From UHGV virus genome UHGV-0018397: DNA of 22,539 nucleotides; one strand, given 5' to 3'. The notes beneath the pieces are model-generated. The model worked only from the letters and a program-made list of their open reading frames with translations. It was not told the origin of the DNA and ran no database searches. The position numbers were made by a program, and so were the translations under genes. This DNA is from a virus. Each line of letters begins with the position of its first letter. Position 1 is the first letter of the stretch. Below are positions 60 through 19,085 of the stretch, piece after piece.

Positions 60-1115
60 ATGATCGGGGAAGACCCAAATATAAACAGTGTTGAGTTAGT
101 CAACGCTGATAGCCTGCAATACATCGCCACTCTCCCTGATAACTCCATTGACCTGATAGTCACGGATCCGCCGTACTTCAAAGTGAAACCCAACGGCTGG
201 GACAATCAGTGGAAAGGGGATGAGGATTATCTTCGCTGGCTTGATATGTGCCTCGCACAATTCTGGCGAGTGCTTAAACCTGCTGGCAGTCTTTATCTTT
301 TCTCCGGTCACCGCCTGGCGGCAGACATTGAGATCATGATGCGTGAGCGGTTCAACGTCCTGAACCACATCATCTGGGCTAAACCGTCGGGCCGCTGGAA
401 TGGCTGTAATAAAGAGAGTCTGCGCTCTTACTTCCCTGCAACAGAGCGCATCCTCTTCGCTGAGCATTACCAGGGGCCGTATAAACCAAAGAGCGACGGT
501 TACGCGGAGAAGGGAAGCGAGCTGAAGCAGCATGTAATGACTCCCCTAATTTCTTATTTCCGGGATGCACGTGAAGCGCTTGGCATAACCTCAAAACAAA
601 TAGCCGATGCGACTGGAAAGAAGAACATGGTGTCTCACTGGTTCAGCGGTAGCCAGTGGCAATTACCGAATGAATTAGACTACCGGAATCTTCAGTCCCT
701 TTTCACGCAGGTAGCCATCGAAAAGCACCAGAACGGCGAACTGGCAACACCACACCACCAGCTGGTGGCTATGTGGCATTCGTTAAATCGCAAGTATTCA
801 GAGCTGCTCGAAGAGTACAAATCGCTTCGGCGGCATTTCTCTGTTTCCGTATCCGTTCCTTATACCGACGTCTGGACACATAAACCCGTTCAGTTTTACC
901 CAGGTAAACACCCATGCGAAAAACCCGCTGACATGTTGCGGCAGATCATCAACGCCAGCAGTAAGCCTGGTGATGTGGTGGCTGATTTCTTTATGGGGTC
1001 CGGTTCGACCGTGAAAATCGCGCTGGAACTTGGCCGCCAGGCTATCGGCGTTGAACTCGAGGAGGACAGGTTTAGCCAGACGGTGGAGGAAATAAGGGCG
1101 TTAACAGGGGAATAA
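60..1115 (+). CDS. DNA methyltransferase (N6-adenine/N4-cytosine family, beta-class motif order), probable phage orphan methylase
   Basis: N-terminal catalytic motif IV (SIDLIVTDPPYF) and C-terminal SAM-binding motif I (FFMGSGST). The frame is also open upstream to the window start, so the true start could lie 5' of ATG 60. Confidence 0.85.
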   Translation: MIGEDPNINSVELVNADSLQYIATLPDNSIDLIVTDPPYFKVKPNGWDNQWKGDEDYLRWLDMCLAQFWRVLKPAGSLYLFSGHRLAADIEIMMRERFNVLNHIIWAKPSGRWNGCNKESLRSYFPATERILFAEHYQGPYKPKSDGYAEKGSELKQHVMTPLISYFRDAREALGITSKQIADATGKKNMVSHWFSGSQWQLPNELDYRNLQSLFTQVAIEKHQNGELATPHHQLVAMWHSLNRKYSELLEEYKSLRRHFSVSVSVPYTDVWTHKPVQFYPGKHPCEKPADMLRQIINASSKPGDVVADFFMGSGSTVKIALELGRQAIGVELEEDRFSQTVEEIRALTGE

Positions 1116-1486: not shown

Positions 1487-2022
1487 TGGGATCCAGAGCA
1501 AAATTAAGTGCTGCTGTTCTGGGGTTGGTACTTGCTGGTGCGCCAGCATCCGTCATTCTCGATCAGTTTCTGAATGAGAAAGAGGGAAACAGCCTTACAG
1601 CGTACAAAGATGGCAGCGGTATCTGGACGATTTGCCGGGGAGCTACCACGGTTGACGGCAAGCCGGTAGTTCAGGGTATGAAGTTGTCAGCTGAGAAATG
1701 TGCCCAGGTGAATGCCATTGAACGCGACAAGGCGCTGGCGTGGGTTGACCGAAATATCAAAGTACCACTGACCGAACCACAGAAAGCCGGGATCGCATCT
1801 TTCTGCCCCTATAACATCGGCCCCGGGAAATGTTTCCCGTCTACGTTCTATAAGCGAATTAATGCTGGCGACCGTAAAGGCGCATGTGAAGCTATTCGCT
1901 GGTGGATTAAAGATGGTGGCCGCGACTGTCGTCTGACCAAAGGCCAGAAAAATGGGTGCTATGGTCAGGTAGAGCGACGAGACCAGGAAAGCGCGTTAAC
2001 GTGCTGGGGGATAGACCAGTGA
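1486..2022 (+). CDS. SAR endolysin (T4-lysozyme-like muramidase with N-terminal signal-anchor-release domain)
   Basis: Catalytic E-8-D-5-T triad in EGNSLTAYKDGSGIWT; Gly/Ala-rich weakly hydrophobic N-terminus (AKLSAAVLGLVLAGAPASVIL) typical of SAR domains. Start is ATG 1486 or GTG 1483. Confidence 0.85.
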   Translation: MGSRAKLSAAVLGLVLAGAPASVILDQFLNEKEGNSLTAYKDGSGIWTICRGATTVDGKPVVQGMKLSAEKCAQVNAIERDKALAWVDRNIKVPLTEPQKAGIASFCPYNIGPGKCFPSTFYKRINAGDRKGACEAIRWWIKDGGRDCRLTKGQKNGCYGQVERRDQESALTCWGIDQ

Positions 2023-2546
2023 GGGCTTACTGGAAGCCGCTGGCAGAAATACTGCTGGTGGCTTTTTTGTTATGCGCGGTCGCGTACTGGTGTTATTCAC
2101 GCGGGTATCAGGAGGCGGACTCATCCTGGAAATTGCAGTGGGCACAACGTGACCTTACTGATGCGACCACTACATTGCAGCGTGAAGTAACCGAAAGAGC
2201 AGAAGAGCAGCGCCGCCAGCGGGCCGTAGATGAAGAACGAGAGAAAGCCGATGAAGAACTGGCAAAAGTACAGGCTGATGCTAACGCTGCTAAGCGTGCT
2301 CGCAGTGGGTTGCAACAGCAGCTCGCCGAAATACAACGGCAGCTCGCAACAAGTGAAACAGGCAGAATTTCCGCAATTGCAGCAACAAGCCAGGCAAAAG
2401 CCGAGGCCGGAATATTGCTCGCCCAGTTGCTCAGCGAAGCTGACGATCTGGCGGGAAAATTCGCAAAAGAGGCTGATGAGCGTTATGTCGCCGGAAATAC
2501 CTGTGAGCGCACCTACGACAAAGTAATAAGGCGCCATGATGAATAA
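2019..2546 (+). CDS. i-spanin (Rz-like)
   Basis: N-terminal transmembrane helix (LAEILLVAFLLCAVAYWCY) followed by a charged coiled-coil periplasmic domain. GTG 2019 is the proposed start; ATG 1956 lies inside the endolysin gene. Confidence 0.65.
   Translation: MRAYWKPLAEILLVAFLLCAVAYWCYSRGYQEADSSWKLQWAQRDLTDATTTLQREVTERAEEQRRQRAVDEEREKADEELAKVQADANAAKRARSGLQQQLAEIQRQLATSETGRISAIAATSQAKAEAGILLAQLLSEADDLAGKFAKEADERYVAGNTCERTYDKVIRRHDE
2251..2526 (+). CDS. o-spanin (Rz1-like outer-membrane lipoprotein), embedded in the +1 frame of Rz
   Basis: Signal peptide with lipobox (MKNWQKYRLMLTLLSVLAVGC); Pro-rich mature region; lies entirely inside the Rz ORF. GAGAGAAAG ribosome-binding site before ATG 2251. 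Confidence 0.65.
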   Translation: MKNWQKYRLMLTLLSVLAVGCNSSSPKYNGSSQQVKQAEFPQLQQQARQKPRPEYCSPSCSAKLTIWRENSQKRLMSVMSPEIPVSAPTTK

Positions 2547-2566
2547 TGCCCGCATTTGCGGGCATT
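2545..2566. terminator. Perfect palindromic hairpin between convergent genes (candidate bidirectional terminator)
   Basis: AATGCCCGCA-TT-TGCGGGCATT, 10-bp perfect inverted repeat, overlapping the Rz stop and 6 nt from the stop of the minus-strand gene; no strong U-tract on either side. Confidence 0.45.
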
Positions 2567-2571
2567 AACGT

Positions 2572-3132
2572 TTAACGATTTTCTGGATGCACTCTCGCGT
2601 TGAGTGTATCGATAAAATCATGTTTAGTAATGCCCACATTGTGAACCCAATTCTTAGCTCTGGCAGGAAGGAAAACTTCAAGCATACGTTGGTAAATTGC
2701 AACAGAGGGCATGTGAGAGTTCCGGGTGAGATCGTCTTTGCCGCTAAACCGTCCCATTCGTTTCAATAAACTACCAATCAAAAGAAACTTTGATTCGTTG
2801 TTACCGTCAAATCCGGGGAATGTGAGTGATAATTTCTCATCGAAATTACGAATAGATTTGGCAACCTCTGCTTTGTCTTCCGCACTGAATCGTTCGTATG
2901 TGTATTGGAGAATGTCATACATATCATAGGTATCAACGAAAAGCTGGACTTCCCAGGGGGTCTCCTCTTCTTCATCTTGAAGGCCTGGGTATTCCCAGGA
3001 TAAAGCCCAGTAGTTATCCGTGCTCACTGCTTCGTCAATGAGGTCAGGATCAAATGAGTTTTCAATTTCTAATGCTCGGTGAATATCACTGAGCATCATG
3101 ATCTGTAGTTTTTCTTGCTGTGAGTATTTCAT
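2572..3132 (-). CDS. YfbU-family (UPF0304) protein, reverse-strand moron
   Basis: 186 aa; recalled similarity to E. coli YfbU blocks (EKLQIMMLSDIH, LTFPGFDGNNESKFL, YQRMLEV). AAGGA ribosome-binding site 8 nt before the ATG. Opposite strand to all flanking phage genes and visibly more AT-rich. Confidence 0.7.
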   Translation of the reverse strand: MKYSQQEKLQIMMLSDIHRALEIENSFDPDLIDEAVSTDNYWALSWEYPGLQDEEEETPWEVQLFVDTYDMYDILQYTYERFSAEDKAEVAKSIRNFDEKLSLTFPGFDGNNESKFLLIGSLLKRMGRFSGKDDLTRNSHMPSVAIYQRMLEVFLPARAKNWVHNVGITKHDFIDTLNARVHPENR

Positions 3133-3147
3133 TCTAAATTCCTTGAA

Positions 3148-3176
3148 TTAATAGAGCGTTGATACTGCGTTATCAA
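3148..3176 (-). promoter_or_regulatory. Candidate sigma70 promoter for the YfbU-like gene, overlapping an inverted repeat
   Basis: On the minus strand TTGATA-N17-TATTAA about 12-15 nt upstream of the ribosome-binding site; on the plus strand TTGATA-ctgcgt-TATCAA (3159-3176) is a perfect 6-bp inverted repeat covering the -35. Confidence 0.35.
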
Positions 3177-3219
3177 AGATACATCTGATTAAATAGTTTT
3201 CAAGAAACTGAGGGTTAAA

Positions 3220-4218
3220 ATGGCAAAACCGGACTGGGGATCACTGCAACACCAGTTCCTCGCCGAGCATGCTAAATCCGGTATTTCCCCCAAAGACTGG
3301 TGTGAAGCGCGGGGGCTGAATTACACATCTGCGCGGCGCTATATCAAAAAGCCAACTGCGCAAAAAAATGCGCAGAAGAAAGTGCGCAATGCGCAGACTG
3401 AACAAGCCCCTACCACTGCGCAGTATGAGCAATCCTCAACTGATGCGCAGACCGATATACAGGAAAGTGCGCAACCCTTCAACCTGCGCAATTACGGCCT
3501 TAACGATATGCAGATCAGGTTTGTCGAAGAGTATCTTCTCGATCTGAACAGGACCGCTGCATACAAGCGAGCTGGCTATAAAGGTGAAGGAAATACGGCT
3601 TACGTTAACGCCTCGCGCCTGCTAAGAAATGCTAAGGTCAGCCAGGCAATCCGCGACGCGCTGGACGAACGCTCGCGAAGAGTGAAGATAACGCAGGACG
3701 AAGTGTTGAAATGGTGGTGGGACATTGCGACGGCAGACGCTACGCAACTTACTGAACATCACCGCGGCTGTTGCCGTTACTGCTGGGGACTCGATTTTAA
3801 CTACCAGTGGCGCGATGCAGTTGAGTTTGAGGAAGCGGAAGAAAAGGTTAAGGGGAAGGAAGGTGCCATGCAGCCTAAGGATACGGGCGGCTACGGCTAC
3901 GACGGCACACTGGACCCGAACCCGGATTGCCCCCGCTGCAATGGCGTTGGTCTGAGCCGTCCTGTTTTCCACGATACACGAGATTTGAAGGGCGCAGAAC
4001 GCCGCCTTTTTGCCGGGATTAAAGAGGGCAAATTTGGCCTTGAAATGATCACCCGCAATCAGGATGAGGCTATGAAGATGGTCGCACAACACCTCGGCAT
4101 GCTGAAAACCAAAACTGAGTTAAGCGGCCCGAATGGTGAGCCCATACAGCATAATCACACAGTAAGCGCGGAGGATCTGACTGATGAGCAGCTCGCCGCA
4201 ATTATCGCTGGTAAGTAA
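3220..4218 (+). CDS. Terminase small subunit (Terminase_2-like core with N-terminal HTH-like extension)
   Basis: Core matches the recalled Terminase_2 pattern (MQIRFVEEYLLDLNRTAAYKRAGYKGEGNTAYVNASRLLRNAKV); N-terminal putative HTH (ISPKDWCEARGLNYTSARRYI); directly upstream of the large terminase; GAGGG ribosome-binding site. Confidence 0.85.
   Translation: MAKPDWGSLQHQFLAEHAKSGISPKDWCEARGLNYTSARRYIKKPTAQKNAQKKVRNAQTEQAPTTAQYEQSSTDAQTDIQESAQPFNLRNYGLNDMQIRFVEEYLLDLNRTAAYKRAGYKGEGNTAYVNASRLLRNAKVSQAIRDALDERSRRVKITQDEVLKWWWDIATADATQLTEHHRGCCRYCWGLDFNYQWRDAVEFEEAEEKVKGKEGAMQPKDTGGYGYDGTLDPNPDCPRCNGVGLSRPVFHDTRDLKGAERRLFAGIKEGKFGLEMITRNQDEAMKMVAQHLGMLKTKTELSGPNGEPIQHNHTVSAEDLTDEQLAAIIAGK
3357..3490. 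repeat. Array of eight TGCGCA palindromic hexamers within the 5' part of terS
   Basis: TGCGCA at 3357, 3369, 3383, 3390, 3417, 3444, 3468 and 3485, read directly from the sequence; six fall in the xxT-GCG-CAR (Ala-Gln) frame and two in a different frame. Confidence 0.8.
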
Positions 4219-17622: not shown

Positions 17623-18566
17623 TGGATACTTTTTACCGTGATTATCGGCTGACGGTGGGGATCGGCAATCAAGCAGTGATTATCGAGCCACCGATCACCG
17701 TGTCATTCAAGGCGCTGGAAACTGTGGACAAGAAGTCACTCGGCAAGCTGAGTGTGTCCATCAACGGGCTAAAGCCTTCCACGCGTCTGCAATTGCTCAA
17801 GTCCGAAGATGAAGAGAAGTATATCCCCGTTCGACTCGAGGTTGGTTACGACGGCAAGCTGCGCCAGGTATTTCAGGGTTCGGTTAAAAGCGGAGCAGTA
17901 AAGCGTGAGGGGGCGATCCACATCGTCAGCCTGGAATGTGAAGACGGTGGCCACGACTATATCAACGCTTTCACATCGCGCACGGTACGCGGGAAAGATC
18001 AGGTCGTCGATTCTGTCTTGCAGGATATGCCAAACACGAAAAAAGGCTCTGTGACGAAGCAACAAGCACTCATCAGGCCGAAGGTTCTGGTAGGTAGCTC
18101 CAGTAAAATTCTTACCGATACCCTTGCGTCCGACGAGTCATTTTTCATCAAAGATGAGCGCGTCCACATCCTCAAGGCTAATGAGGTTACATCGGGTAAC
18201 ATTCCAGTCGTGAATGCGCGTAGCGGTCTGCTAAATACGCCTCAGGCAACGAAGATTAGCGCACAGGATGACGGGGGGAAGAAAGCCAAGATGCCAACCA
18301 ATGAGCCTGATACGGATCCGGCAGGCAAAAAAGATACTGACTCGAGTACCTTAGCCAAATCCTCGAAAGGGCAGATCGTATTCGATACGAAACTGAATCC
18401 TATGCTGGTGATCGGTGGGCTTTGCGCTGTTGAAAGCGTGACGAACCCCGCGTTAAACGGGGTTTATAAGATATACCAGATTGAAACCAGCGGGCAGAAC
18501 AACGGGGCAGCCTGGTATCAGAAGGTGGTATGCCAGCCTGCCGGAAATTACTCAGTTGTTAACTGA
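17619..18566 (+). CDS. Putative baseplate hub / tail protein
   Basis: 315 aa in the baseplate region; its 3' end overlaps the 3' end of the minus-strand gene by 15 nt. Confidence 0.45.
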   Translation: MMDTFYRDYRLTVGIGNQAVIIEPPITVSFKALETVDKKSLGKLSVSINGLKPSTRLQLLKSEDEEKYIPVRLEVGYDGKLRQVFQGSVKSGAVKREGAIHIVSLECEDGGHDYINAFTSRTVRGKDQVVDSVLQDMPNTKKGSVTKQQALIRPKVLVGSSSKILTDTLASDESFFIKDERVHILKANEVTSGNIPVVNARSGLLNTPQATKISAQDDGGKKAKMPTNEPDTDPAGKKDTDSSTLAKSSKGQIVFDTKLNPMLVIGGLCAVESVTNPALNGVYKIYQIETSGQNNGAAWYQKVVCQPAGNYSVVN

Positions 18567-19085
18567 AGATTTTACTTCTTGCGTTACGCTGGAATTGGTT
18601 TTTTCTGGTGGGTGACGATCTGAAAGCCAGCCAAGAGCAAAAATAATGACTGTGAGAATAAAAATTTTCTCGCCTATTGAAAACTTCACCTTACCACCTG
18701 CATTTTTAAATGCCGTTTTCTCCTCGGTTGATAGTTTTCTAAATTGCTTATGGGTTAATACCATGACCAATGGGCGAGGTGGTTGAATATCTTCCTGACC
18801 ATCCTCTAACAACGTTGAGTCCGAAAAGAAACCAAGCCGCTCAGGTGCTTGTTCCTCTACATTCTCAGCGTGTTTACCGGTGGAGTTCTTTTGACCCGCG
18901 AGCAAGTTTCCACTCGTGTAAGACAAACCGGTACCGGGAATGCCTGCGGTTGCCTTTACCCCTTTTTTACCAACGTTCAGGGTAGCACCAGCCTTACCAA
19001 TTGATGCGCTAGTAATGCCTGTTTTACCTATGTTTATATGAATGCCTGGTGCAATTTTGATGCGCTGTCTGAATTTGAATCCCAT
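18552..19085 (-). CDS. DUF4236-like membrane protein, reverse-strand moron
   Basis: 177 aa; N-terminus MGFKFRQRIKIAPGIHINIGKTGITSASIGKAGATLNVGKKGVKATAGIPGTGLSYTSG matches the Gly-rich DUF4236 pattern as recalled; C-terminal transmembrane helix (IFILTVIIFALGWL); GGAGAG ribosome-binding site; AT-rich. Confidence 0.7.
   Translation of the reverse strand: MGFKFRQRIKIAPGIHINIGKTGITSASIGKAGATLNVGKKGVKATAGIPGTGLSYTSGNLLAGQKNSTGKHAENVEEQAPERLGFFSDSTLLEDGQEDIQPPRPLVMVLTHKQFRKLSTEEKTAFKNAGGKVKFSIGEKIFILTVIIFALGWLSDRHPPEKTNSSVTQEVKSSVNN

What the first reader, a model, noticed from the sequence alone, without database searches (positions are those of the whole stretch)
2572..3132. YfbU-family gene as a reverse-strand moron in the bor-equivalent slot between lysis cassette and terminase
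This is the only gene on the minus strand in the first 18 kb. It has its own ribosome-binding site and a promoter-like element, ends at a perfect palindromic hairpin, and looks more AT-rich than the flanking phage genes. It sits between Rz/Rz1 and terS, where lambda carries bor. The protein matches E. coli YfbU in several blocks. YfbU has, to my recollection, been reported among proteins linked to MazF-mediated cell death, so a prophage copy could act in abortive infection, superinfection exclusion or lysogenic conversion. I know of no characterised phage-borne YfbU function.
Basis: partly seen in the sequence, partly recalled or inferred. Interest (0 to 1): 0.75.

Follow-up and report, generated by a model that had tools for sequence, protein, structure and literature searches.

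The report
Prophage YfbU-fold moron, candidate phage defence
A small self-contained gene cassette encoding a divergent YfbU-fold protein sits backwards between the lysis and DNA-packaging genes of an E. coli prophage, in a slot where related phages carry other cargo, and it probably protects the lysogen against other phages, as a distant lactococcal relative (Kamadhenu) does, though this is untested.

Summary

It behaves as a moron cassette of promoter-like element, ORF and hairpin. GC is 42% against 51% in the flanks. Homology to sister prophages breaks exactly at the terS start codon and near the spanin gene end. The slot in relatives holds other cargo: a SIR2-family gene, a PD-T4-6-like kinase with PP2C, DUF2513, KTSC, orphans, or nothing.

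Homologues of at least 47% identity occupy the same slot, antisense, in at least six unrelated packaging backbones (40-43 of 45 viral contigs). The protein is under purifying selection. The cassette is rare: 2 of 5,426 complete E. coli genomes.

The window protein is a divergent third branch, so a Kamadhenu-like role is likely but unproven. New member of a known kind; moderate interest.

The parts
2572..3132 (-). 186-aa ORF encoding a divergent YfbU/UPF0304-fold protein (PHROG 6084 clade). PGAP names the identical gene 'YfbU family protein' (WP_001767237.1).
2544..2567 (.). Perfect 10-bp GC-rich palindromic hairpin with a 4-nt loop, between the convergent spanin and YfbU genes. It overlaps the spanin stop codon. 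It is a candidate bidirectional terminator or RNA-stabilising element that travels with the cassette.
   Evidence: All 8 homologous cassettes have a hairpin right after the stop codon, and homology to L004 and L005 starts at 2543-2545.
3140..3144 (-). Shine-Dalgarno AAGGA, 7 nt upstream of the ATG
   Evidence: read directly
3176..3203 (-). Sigma-70-like promoter candidate: TTGAAA, 16-nt spacer, TATCTT
   Evidence: not above chance on its own; identical hexamers and spacing upstream of the L005 homologue
2547..3219 (.). The variable cargo slot (the moron module) between the spanin stop and the terS start. Homology to sister phages stops at about 2526 on one side and resumes at 3218-3220 on the other.
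1956..2546 (+). Left flank: DUF2514 i-spanin, with an embedded o-spanin-like ORF (2230-2526, lipobox LAVGC)
3220..4218 (+). Right flank: small terminase (Terminase_2). Its first ~129 nt are conserved among otherwise different prophage terS genes, so this is a likely recombination linker bounding the slot.

Best explanation
The feature is a moron: an autonomous promoter-ORF-hairpin cassette placed antisense in the hypervariable cargo slot between the lysis cassette and terS of a lambdoid-type E. coli prophage integrated next to kch.

Shown here:
- It encodes a standalone, roughly 185-aa, all-helical YfbU-fold protein.
- The protein belongs to a divergent clade that is specific to temperate phages.
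- The cassette moves between unrelated phage backbones by recombination at conserved linkers (the spanin 3' end and the terS 5' end).
- The protein is under purifying selection.

Inferred:
- It is transcribed from its own promoter in the lysogen, like lambda bor.
- It acts as a single-protein abortive-infection or superinfection-exclusion factor analogous to lactococcal Kamadhenu.
- In that model the protein, probably oligomeric, is inert until a superinfecting phage produces a trigger. For Kamadhenu the escape mutations point to the phage single-strand annealing protein, that is, to recombination or replication intermediates.
- It then blocks a late step of infection or kills the cell. The conserved F-P-G-F-D-G-N-N-E / N-S-H / Y-x-R-M surface would be the functional site.
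- Convergent late transcription would damp its expression during the prophage's own lytic growth.
For: Family and fold:
- Pfam YfbU 46.5 bits against a cut-off of 25.
- hhalign of the clade against E. coli YfbU gives 98.8% probability. Against the Kamadhenu-like clade it gives 99.4%, E 5e-22.

Moron anatomy:
- GC is 0.42 against 0.51 in the flanks. Seven of the eight distinct homologue backbones checked are also 8-15 points below their flanks; L012 is only about 6 points below.
- A hairpin follows the stop codon in 8 of 8 cassettes, with sequence turnover but a retained stem.
- L005 has identical promoter hexamers.
- Homology to sister phages L002, L019 and L020 resumes exactly at the terS ATG. 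L003 spanin homology ends at 2526. Salmonella L044, which has a different terminase, shares 2307-3238 at 93% identity.

Accessory status:
- Present in 2 of 5,426 complete E. coli genomes.
- Absent from 25 of 25 TerL-related loci in other species.

Hotspot: the same slot holds a SIR2-family gene, a PD-T4-6-like kinase with PP2C (PADLOC E 1e-31), DUF2513, KTSC, orphans, or nothing.

Recurrent placement: of 45 IMG/VR loci with at least 47% identity, 43 have terminase on the 5' side, 42 have lysis genes on the 3' side, and 43 are antisense to their flanks. This holds across at least 6 packaging types.

Selection: pN 0.16-0.44 with pS saturated at 0.78-0.96.

Functional precedent:
- Kamadhenu is a 180-aa single-gene protein with only a PF03887 domain and an Abi phenotype (PMC11381338).
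- It has no effect on phage replication, transcription or translation, and escape mutants map to Sak-like SSAP G22 (PMC12184496 and PMC13064643).
- E. coli yfbU is required for mazEF-linked death after DNA damage (PMC2646832).
- The window protein and the Kamadhenu-like protein both keep the full F-x-GFDGN-x-E / NSH / Y signature, which E. coli YfbU has partly lost.

Wider family: it is typical mobile-element cargo. It is on more than 250 Enterococcus plasmids, on small Acinetobacter plasmids beside an Abi-family gene, and on a 3.4-kb Pseudomonas element.
Against: - There are no functional data for this clade.
- The prophage clade is no closer to Kamadhenu than to housekeeping E. coli YfbU. 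The prophage-clade profile scores them at 44.2 and 42.9 bits. The Kamadhenu-clade profile scores E. coli YfbU at 105 bits but the window protein at only 28. Function cannot simply be transferred across that distance.
- The authentic Kamadhenu sequence (pUCCL624_130) was not available. I used a proxy: a 180-aa lactococcal YfbU protein from the same strain collection.
- Kamadhenu was tested by constitutive expression from a high-copy vector.
- The promoter-like match is not above chance and the hairpin lacks a U-tract.
- PADLOC gives no hit. This is uninformative, because PADLOC 2023 also misses the Kamadhenu-like protein.
- No catalytic motif or effector domain is recognisable, so the killing or blocking step is entirely hypothetical.
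Confidence: 0.5

Rival explanations
1. Lysogenic conversion aimed at host physiology rather than at other phages. The prophage protein would act as a mimic, partner or dominant-negative of the host's own YfbU. It would modulate the mazEF/YfbU-dependent death response to DNA damage, for example keeping the cell alive long enough for SOS-induced prophage development.
For: - E. coli yfbU is a 'death gene' specifically under DNA damage, which is the inducing signal for lambdoid prophages (PMC2646832).
- The prophage protein has the same fold.
- YfbU crystallises as a large assembly: 16 chains in 1WPB and in 4LR3, described as a 'large complex' in PMC11381338. Mixed oligomers are therefore conceivable.
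- The antisense position with its own promoter fits expression in the lysogen.
Against: - Identity to E. coli YfbU is only about 19-27%, so co-assembly is doubtful.
- The clade also occurs in genera such as Pantoea, Morganella, Hafnia and Yersinia, with no evidence for a matching host pathway.
- The mazEF death literature is itself contested (my own knowledge).
- The slot's other cargo looks like defence genes, not stress modulators.
Confidence: 0.17
2. A lytic-cycle accessory or counter-defence protein that helps the phage itself overcome host immunity or recombination-sensing defences.
For: The lysis-terminase interval of related prophages also carries anti-defence-like genes, such as a Tad2-like fragment and KilA-N in Morganella loci L006 and L008. 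Cargo slots often mix defence and anti-defence genes.
Against: - The gene is antisense to the late operon in 43 of 45 loci. During lytic growth it would face convergent late transcription, which is a poor design for a lytic-phase function.
- Only 4 records (2-3 distinct temperate phages) among 50,697 isolated phage genomes carry a homologue, and none is an obligately lytic phage.
- The experimentally characterised relative is a defence protein, not an inhibitor.
Confidence: 0.12
3. A regulatory or toxin-antitoxin-type module. The YfbU domain would be a sensor or partner domain that normally works with a ribbon-helix-helix DNA-binding domain. The standalone prophage version would then be an orphan regulator or addiction component stabilising the prophage.
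For: About 14 of the 149 nearest cluster representatives carry an N-terminal RHH_1 (CopG) domain fused to the YfbU domain, and 3 of 4 tested pass Pfam's cut-off. The family is common on very small plasmids.
Against: - The window protein has no DNA-binding domain.
- No conserved neighbouring partner gene was found in any context examined.
- A prophage integrated in the chromosome has little need for an addiction module in this position.
Confidence: 0.08
4. A non-functional passenger or decaying remnant that happens to sit in a recombination-prone interval.
For: It is very rare in E. coli (2 of 5,426 genomes).
Against: - Full-length intact ORFs occur in dozens of backbones.
- Eight positions are invariant and many more nearly invariant.
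- pN is far below the saturated pS.
- Hairpin and RBS are retained.
- The fold prediction is confident.
Confidence: 0.03

Closest known systems
Kamadhenu (Lactococcus plasmid pUCCL624_130), a single-gene abortive-infection-like antiphage system (Grafakou et al. 2024, PMC11381338; Mosterd et al. 2025, PMC12184496)
   Same: - Single gene of about 180 aa (180 versus 186) whose only recognisable domain is YfbU (PF03887).
- Carried on a mobile element among other defence genes.
- Same fold as 1WPB.
- Shares the F-x-GFDGN-x-E / N-S-H / Y signature.
- Clade-to-clade hhalign probability is 99.4%.
- A 97%-identical copy of the Kamadhenu-like protein lies beside a lactococcal prophage integrase.
   Different: - Only 20-27% identity.
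- Kamadhenu's clade is much closer to canonical YfbU (105 bits) than to the window protein (28 bits).
- Gram-positive plasmid versus enterobacterial prophage.
- The window protein has extra conserved features: W42, a W-x-Y-P segment, and a C-terminal T-L-N-A-R-x-H-P-x-N-R tail.
- Antiphage activity and the SSAP trigger are shown for Kamadhenu and untested here.
- The comparison used a proxy sequence, not the published one.
E. coli YfbU (UPF0304; PDB 1WPB and 4LR3), a chromosomal 'death gene' in mazEF-mediated death after DNA damage (Amitai et al. 2009, PMC2646832)
   Different: - Not orthologous (NCBIfam equivalog 35 bits against a cut-off of 90).
- 19-27% identity.
- YfbU is a core chromosomal gene of 164 aa; this is a rare, low-GC, horizontally moving prophage gene of 186 aa.
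- E. coli YfbU has A-A and A-Q where the window protein and most of the family have G-N and S-H.
Lambda bor, and lambdoid morons in general (such as HK97 gp15 and lambda lom and rexAB; the moron concept of Hendrix and colleagues, from my own knowledge)
   Same: Same genomic position and orientation as bor: antisense, immediately after Rz/Rz1 and before the packaging genes. Same architecture of own promoter, single ORF and terminator hairpin, with deviant base composition and presence/absence polymorphism between sister phages.
   Different: No sequence or structural relationship to Bor. Bor is a 97-aa outer-membrane lipoprotein, whereas the window protein has no signal peptide or lipobox and is predicted to be a soluble helical protein.
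PHROG 6084 (phage protein family of unknown function)
   Same: Full-length match at E 7e-75. This is the phage-specific clade the window protein belongs to.
   Different: The PHROG carries no functional annotation. The link to YfbU and Kamadhenu is not recorded there.

Membership tests
YfbU / UPF0304 superfamily (Pfam PF03887) | Score above the Pfam gathering threshold over most of the domain | tested here: met
   46.5 bits against a cut-off of 25, E 5.5e-12, residues 1-158 on profile positions 1-150 of 166
YfbU / UPF0304 superfamily (Pfam PF03887) | Two-domain all-helical YfbU fold | tested here: met
YfbU / UPF0304 superfamily (Pfam PF03887) | Family signature residues: F-x-G-F-D-(G-N)-x-E, N-(S-H), Y-x-R-M | tested here: met
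   F105, G107, F108, D109, G110, N111, E113, N138, S139, H140, Y147 and M150 are all present. Each is conserved in 81-99% of 149 cluster representatives.
E. coli YfbU orthologue group (NCBIfam NF003936 equivalog) | Score above the curated equivalog cut-off | tested here: not met
   35 bits against a cut-off of 90, and only residues 61-155 match. phmmer against PDB YfbU chains gives E about 0.5.
E. coli YfbU orthologue group (NCBIfam NF003936 equivalog) | Large homo-oligomeric assembly, as in the crystal structures | not testable with these tools
   Only a monomer prediction was available
Kamadhenu antiphage system | Single-gene system: a protein of about 180 aa with YfbU as its only domain and no obligatory partner gene | tested here: met
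   186 aa with only PF03887. No conserved neighbouring partner across contexts.
Kamadhenu antiphage system | Specific sequence relatedness to Kamadhenu, closer than to generic YfbU proteins | tested here: not met
   The Kamadhenu-clade HMM scores the window protein at 28.1 bits and E. coli YfbU at 105.3. The prophage-clade HMM scores the Kamadhenu-like protein at 44.2 and E. coli YfbU at 42.9. A proxy sequence was used.
Kamadhenu antiphage system | Confers phage resistance with an abortive-infection phenotype | not testable with these tools
   Requires phage challenge assays
Kamadhenu antiphage system | Escape through mutation of the phage single-strand annealing protein | not testable with these tools
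   Requires escape-mutant genetics. The resident prophage encodes RecT/RecE.
Lambdoid moron (autonomous accessory transcription unit) | Present/absent between otherwise homologous phages, with sharp boundaries between conserved genes | tested here: met
   Homology to L002, L019 and L020 resumes at 3218-3220. L003 spanin homology ends at 2526. Relatives carry alternative cargo.
Lambdoid moron (autonomous accessory transcription unit) | Base composition different from the surrounding phage genes | tested here: met
   GC 0.421 against 0.514. The same offset is seen in 7 of the 8 distinct homologue backbones checked.
Lambdoid moron (autonomous accessory transcription unit) | Own promoter | tested here: inconclusive
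   TTGAAA-16-TATCTT is present, and L005 has identical hexamers. The count in the region is not above shuffles, and there are no expression data.
Lambdoid moron (autonomous accessory transcription unit) | Own terminator | tested here: inconclusive
   A stable hairpin (dG about -17.5, z -3.2 to -4.8) is conserved as a structure in 8 of 8 cassettes. It lacks a U-tract here, so it fails the canonical intrinsic-terminator pattern.
Bor-like lipoprotein | Homology to Bor; signal peptide with lipobox | tested here: not met
   Pfam gives only YfbU. The N-terminus MKYSQQEKLQIMMLSD has no signal peptide or lipobox. The resemblance is positional only.

The most novel reading that the evidence does not exclude
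The prophage protein is a structural mimic of the host 'death protein' YfbU. It co-assembles with, or competes against, host YfbU and so disarms the mazEF/YfbU-dependent suicide response to DNA damage. The prophage could then complete SOS-triggered induction in a cell that would otherwise kill itself. This would be a phage counter-measure against a chromosomal abortive-infection-like pathway. It would also mean the YfbU fold is used on both sides of the conflict, with Kamadhenu as the defence version.
Probability: 0.08. Interest if true: 0.7.

Novelty: new member of a known kind. Interest (0 to 1): 0.4.

Why it matters
YfbU/UPF0304 is a widespread fold: 2,959 cluster representatives at 50% identity. 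It has been solved since 2004 but still has no biochemical function. Its only phenotypes are 'required for death after DNA damage' in E. coli and 'abortive infection' for lactococcal Kamadhenu.

This work identifies a distinct clade specific to temperate phages. It is placed almost invariably as an antisense moron in the lysis-terminase cargo slot of enterobacterial prophages. That offers a genetically tractable E. coli entry point to the question of what this fold senses and does, using lambda and BASEL phages, recombineering and known SSAP families.

It also documents the spanin-terS interval of this phage group as a hypervariable hotspot carrying defence-like genes, which can be mined. The practical caveat is that the gene is already annotated as a 'YfbU family protein' and the defence link already exists in the literature. 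This is an extension rather than a new principle.

Tried and rejected
- PADLOC scan of the window protein gave no hit. I rejected it as evidence against defence because a control showed that PADLOC 2023 also fails to recognise the Kamadhenu-like protein and E. coli YfbU.
- Retrieving the authentic Kamadhenu sequence failed. No supplements are held, pUCCL624 is not in PLSDB, and the paper text does not mention pUCCL629. As a proxy I used the frameshifted YfbU gene of pUCCL629C, repaired by restoring one G, and then validated it against the intact 97%-identical 180-aa P0197.
- Search for a conserved partner gene, such as a small RHH or antitoxin: none was found. The 81-aa ORF upstream on the Acinetobacter plasmid is not RHH-like, and small ORFs next to homologues are not consistent between loci.
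- Alternative coding on the plus strand of 2572-3132: only 47-67-aa ORFs with no support.
- Rfam scan of the whole window found nothing.
- BFVD fold search gave a single weak match. The AFDB50 library was unavailable.
- A first E. coli survey with the packaging genes timed out. I replaced it with a genome contigs TerL scan.
- The Gifsy GiPD474 paper (PMC12724215) was checked as a possible precedent. It concerns an unrelated ATPase in a different prophage region.
- dN/dS could not be given as a ratio because synonymous sites are saturated. Only pN far below pS is claimed.
- Bor homology was rejected: the resemblance is positional only.

Full report
**1. The observation**

The window carries a 186-aa ORF at 2572..3132 on the minus strand. 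The window is 100% identical to a prophage integrated next to kch in E. coli NADC1036 and VE-F5. PGAP already names this gene 'YfbU family protein'.

In that annotation every gene from the replication module to a DUF4236 gene at about window 18.55 kb is on the plus strand except this one. The 'only minus-strand gene in the first 18 kb' claim therefore holds.

The gene lies between a lysis cassette and the small and large terminase genes. The lysis cassette consists of a holin candidate, a Phage_lysozyme gene, and a DUF2514 i-spanin with an embedded lipobox ORF. Lambda has antisense bor in the equivalent place, right after Rz/Rz1.

Regulatory signals:
- An AAGGA Shine-Dalgarno sits 7 nt before the ATG.
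- A TTGAAA-16-TATCTT promoter-like site lies at 3203..3176. The number of such sites in the region is not above shuffled expectation.
- Between the two convergent stop codons is a perfect 10-bp/4-nt hairpin at 2544-2567, with dG about -17.5 kcal/mol and z -4.8 and -3.2. It has no T-run, so it fails the canonical terminator pattern.

GC is 0.421 in the gene and 0.30 in the upstream spacer, against 0.514 for the rest of the window.

**2. What the protein is**

Pfam PF03887 (YfbU) matches at E 5.5e-12, 46.5 bits against a cut-off of 25, over residues 1-158. The NCBIfam equivalog for E. coli YfbU is missed by a wide margin (35 bits against 90). Direct phmmer against PDB YfbU chains is not significant. 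Pairwise BLASTP finds one block of 27% identity.

It matches PHROG 6084 (unknown function) at full length, E 7e-75.

An exhaustive profile search finds 2,959 cluster representatives at E <= 1e-3. Across the 149 nearest, the conserved positions are L9, M13, L14, W42, M71, F105, G107, F108, D109, G110, N111, E113, N138, S139, H140, Y147 and M150. The DSSP string of the model shows isolated bridge residues at 108 and 138, which suggests that the two motif segments lie next to each other.

About 14 of those 149 representatives carry an N-terminal ribbon-helix-helix (RHH_1) domain. The window protein does not.

**3. It is a mobile cassette in a hypervariable slot**

Sister prophages with the same packaging genes lose homology to the window precisely at the terS start codon (3218-3220). 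These are TUM9803 with an identical TerL, Citrobacter murliniae with 99% TerL, and Kluyvera with 98% TerL. Another relative's spanin homology stops at 2526.

In the interval between, related phages carry other cargo:
- a SIR2-family gene (L002);
- a 136-aa orphan (L003);
- DUF2513 plus an antisense orphan (L019);
- an antisense KTSC gene plus two orphans (L020);
- an antisense 138-aa orphan (L024);
- a membrane protein plus an orphan (L026);
- a Ser/Thr kinase resembling the antiphage kinase PD-T4-6 (PADLOC E 1e-31) with a PP2C phosphatase (L039);
- or nothing (L025).

None of the 25 TerL-related loci from other species has the YfbU gene.

The cassette also appears in other backbones:
- A Salmonella prophage with unrelated terminase genes shares window 2307-3238 at 93% identity. 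That block is the cassette plus a spanin 3' fragment and the first 19 nt of terS.
- More distant copies (68-71% nucleotide identity) in E. coli and Klebsiella lambda-like prophages share exactly hairpin plus ORF, 2543-3133.

All eight cassettes examined have a GC-rich hairpin directly after the stop codon. The sequences differ but the stems are retained. One cassette (L005) has the same -35 and -10 hexamers and spacing as the window. Homologues are 8-15 GC points below their flanks in seven of the eight distinct backbones checked.

In IMG/VR, 92 loci encode relatives. Of the 45 with at least 47% identity and at least 2 kb on both sides:
- 43 have terminase genes on the 5' side;
- 42 have lysis genes on the 3' side;
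- 40 have both;
- 43 are antisense to their flanks.

This spans at least six different packaging modules. More distant relatives (41% identity or less) sit elsewhere, several of them converging on an integrase, and one is in a P2-like Yersinia phage.

The cassette is rare. It is in 2 of 5,426 complete E. coli genomes even at distant-blastn sensitivity, and in 4 of 50,697 deposited phage records.

Synonymous sites between homologues are saturated (pS 0.78-0.96) while pN is 0.16-0.44. The protein is therefore maintained by selection.

**4. What is known about relatives**

E. coli yfbU was listed among the 'death genes' needed for mazEF-mediated death, specifically after DNA damage (PMC2646832).

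I could not obtain the published sequence. As a proxy I used the only lactococcal YfbU gene in PLSDB:
- It is on pUCCL629C, from the same strain collection, within a restriction-modification-rich region.
- It is frameshifted there. Restoring one G gives a 180-aa protein.
- An intact 97%-identical 180-aa protein, P0197, exists.

Comparison results:
- Clade-to-clade hhalign with the prophage family gives 99.4% probability, E 5e-22, 20% identity over 164 columns.
- The window protein and this protein share the full F-x-GFDGN-x-E / N-S-H / Y signature. E. coli YfbU has A-A and A-Q at four of these positions.
- However, the Kamadhenu-clade HMM scores E. coli YfbU at 105 bits and the window protein at only 28. 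The prophage-clade HMM scores both at about 43-44 bits.

The prophage clade is therefore a third, divergent branch rather than a Kamadhenu orthologue.

The superfamily at large is mobile-element cargo. It is on more than 250 Enterococcus plasmids, on small Acinetobacter plasmids next to an Abi-family gene, and on a 3.4-kb Pseudomonas element with a recombinase. PADLOC's silence is uninformative, because that release does not recognise the Kamadhenu-like protein either.

**5. Most likely mechanism**

Shown: this is an autonomous, horizontally exchanged, selectively maintained single-gene cassette. It sits in a cargo hotspot that elsewhere holds defence-like genes, and it encodes a YfbU-fold protein.

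Inferred, with roughly 50% confidence: it is expressed from its own promoter in the lysogen and works like Kamadhenu, as a single-protein abortive-infection or exclusion factor. The trigger would be a product of an incoming phage, plausibly its recombination or annealing machinery. It would act through the conserved GFDGNNE/NSH surface. How the cell or phage is then stopped is unknown for any family member.

Rivals:
- A host-directed role that modulates YfbU/mazEF-linked death after DNA damage (about 0.17).
- A lytic-phase or counter-defence role (about 0.12). This is disfavoured by the near-universal antisense orientation.
- An RHH-less regulatory or addiction-type role (about 0.08).
- A passenger remnant (about 0.03). 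This is contradicted by the conservation.

**6. Novelty and verdict**

The gene is already annotated as YfbU-family, the phage clade already exists as a PHROG, and a YfbU-domain antiphage system is already published. The additions here are:
- the recognition of a distinct temperate-phage clade;
- its strikingly fixed antisense placement in the lysis-terS slot across unrelated backbones;
- the mapping of cassette boundaries;
- the link to Kamadhenu.

This is a new member of a known kind. It is of moderate interest, mainly as a tractable E. coli route to the still unknown biochemistry of the YfbU fold.

Noticed in passing
window 3357-3490 (inside terS): Eight copies of the palindromic hexamer TGCGCA lie within 134 bp, against six in the remaining 22.4 kb. 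They encode an AQ-rich linker of TerS. This is a candidate pac site or TerS recognition repeat array.
   Followed up: partly
window 3220-3348: The first ~129 nt of terS (MAKPDWG...) match at 88% many otherwise different E. coli prophage terS genes. The motif also recurs in the gene upstream of the Morganella and Pantoea cassettes. It is a likely conserved recombination linker bounding the cargo slot.
   Followed up: partly
window 3159-3176: A perfect inverted repeat, TTGATA-N6-TATCAA, abuts the -10-like hexamer of the candidate promoter, over the expected transcription start. It looks like an operator, but the arms are short and no conservation was seen in other cassettes.
   Followed up: no
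window ~18552-19085 (minus strand): A second antisense gene, encoding a DUF4236 protein, is embedded among baseplate and tail genes. It is another likely moron.
   Followed up: no
L039 3110-4617 (Providencia sp. PAZ2 prophage, same slot): A Ser/Thr kinase strongly resembling the antiphage kinase PD-T4-6 (PADLOC E 1e-31; mad6 E 2.5e-37), followed by a PP2C phosphatase (PDC-M21C-like), occupies the spanin-terS slot. This is a candidate two-gene defence cargo.
   Followed up: partly
L002 3931-4854 (E. coli TUM9803 prophage, same slot): A SIR2-family protein (weak PADLOC SIR2 matches) replaces the YfbU cassette in a prophage whose TerL is identical to the window's.
   Followed up: partly
L006 and L008 8971-9078 and 7782-8324 (Morganella prophages): A Tad2-like (anti-Thoeris) fragment and a KilA-N gene lie in the same lysis-terminase interval as the YfbU homologue. 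The interval seems to collect both defence and counter-defence genes.
   Followed up: no
P0077, P0096, P0122, P0154 and about 10 more cluster representatives: These are fusions of an N-terminal ribbon-helix-helix (CopG/RHH_1) DNA-binding domain to the YfbU domain (ERFELRLD...PSRSEAVRRLIE.GL). The architecture hints at DNA binding or autoregulation in part of the family.
   Followed up: partly
L050 833-2880 (Logan SRR6419852 contig): The intact Kamadhenu-like 180-aa gene lies tail-to-tail with a phage integrase. Next to that are a lactococcal phage repressor and other prophage early-region genes. Kamadhenu-type genes may therefore also be prophage-borne in Lactococcus.
   Followed up: no
L018 4257-4798 (pUCCL629C, NZ_PP589679.1): The lactococcal YfbU gene is annotated as two fragments because of a single missing G in a CAGGGA run. 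Nearby methylase genes are also fragmented, which suggests either assembly homopolymer errors or real decay.
   Followed up: partly
window 60-1115: An N6/N4 DNA methyltransferase with a weak internal HTH match lies just upstream of the lysis cassette. It is conserved (60-80% identity) in several relatives from Proteus, Providencia and Kluyvera.
   Followed up: no
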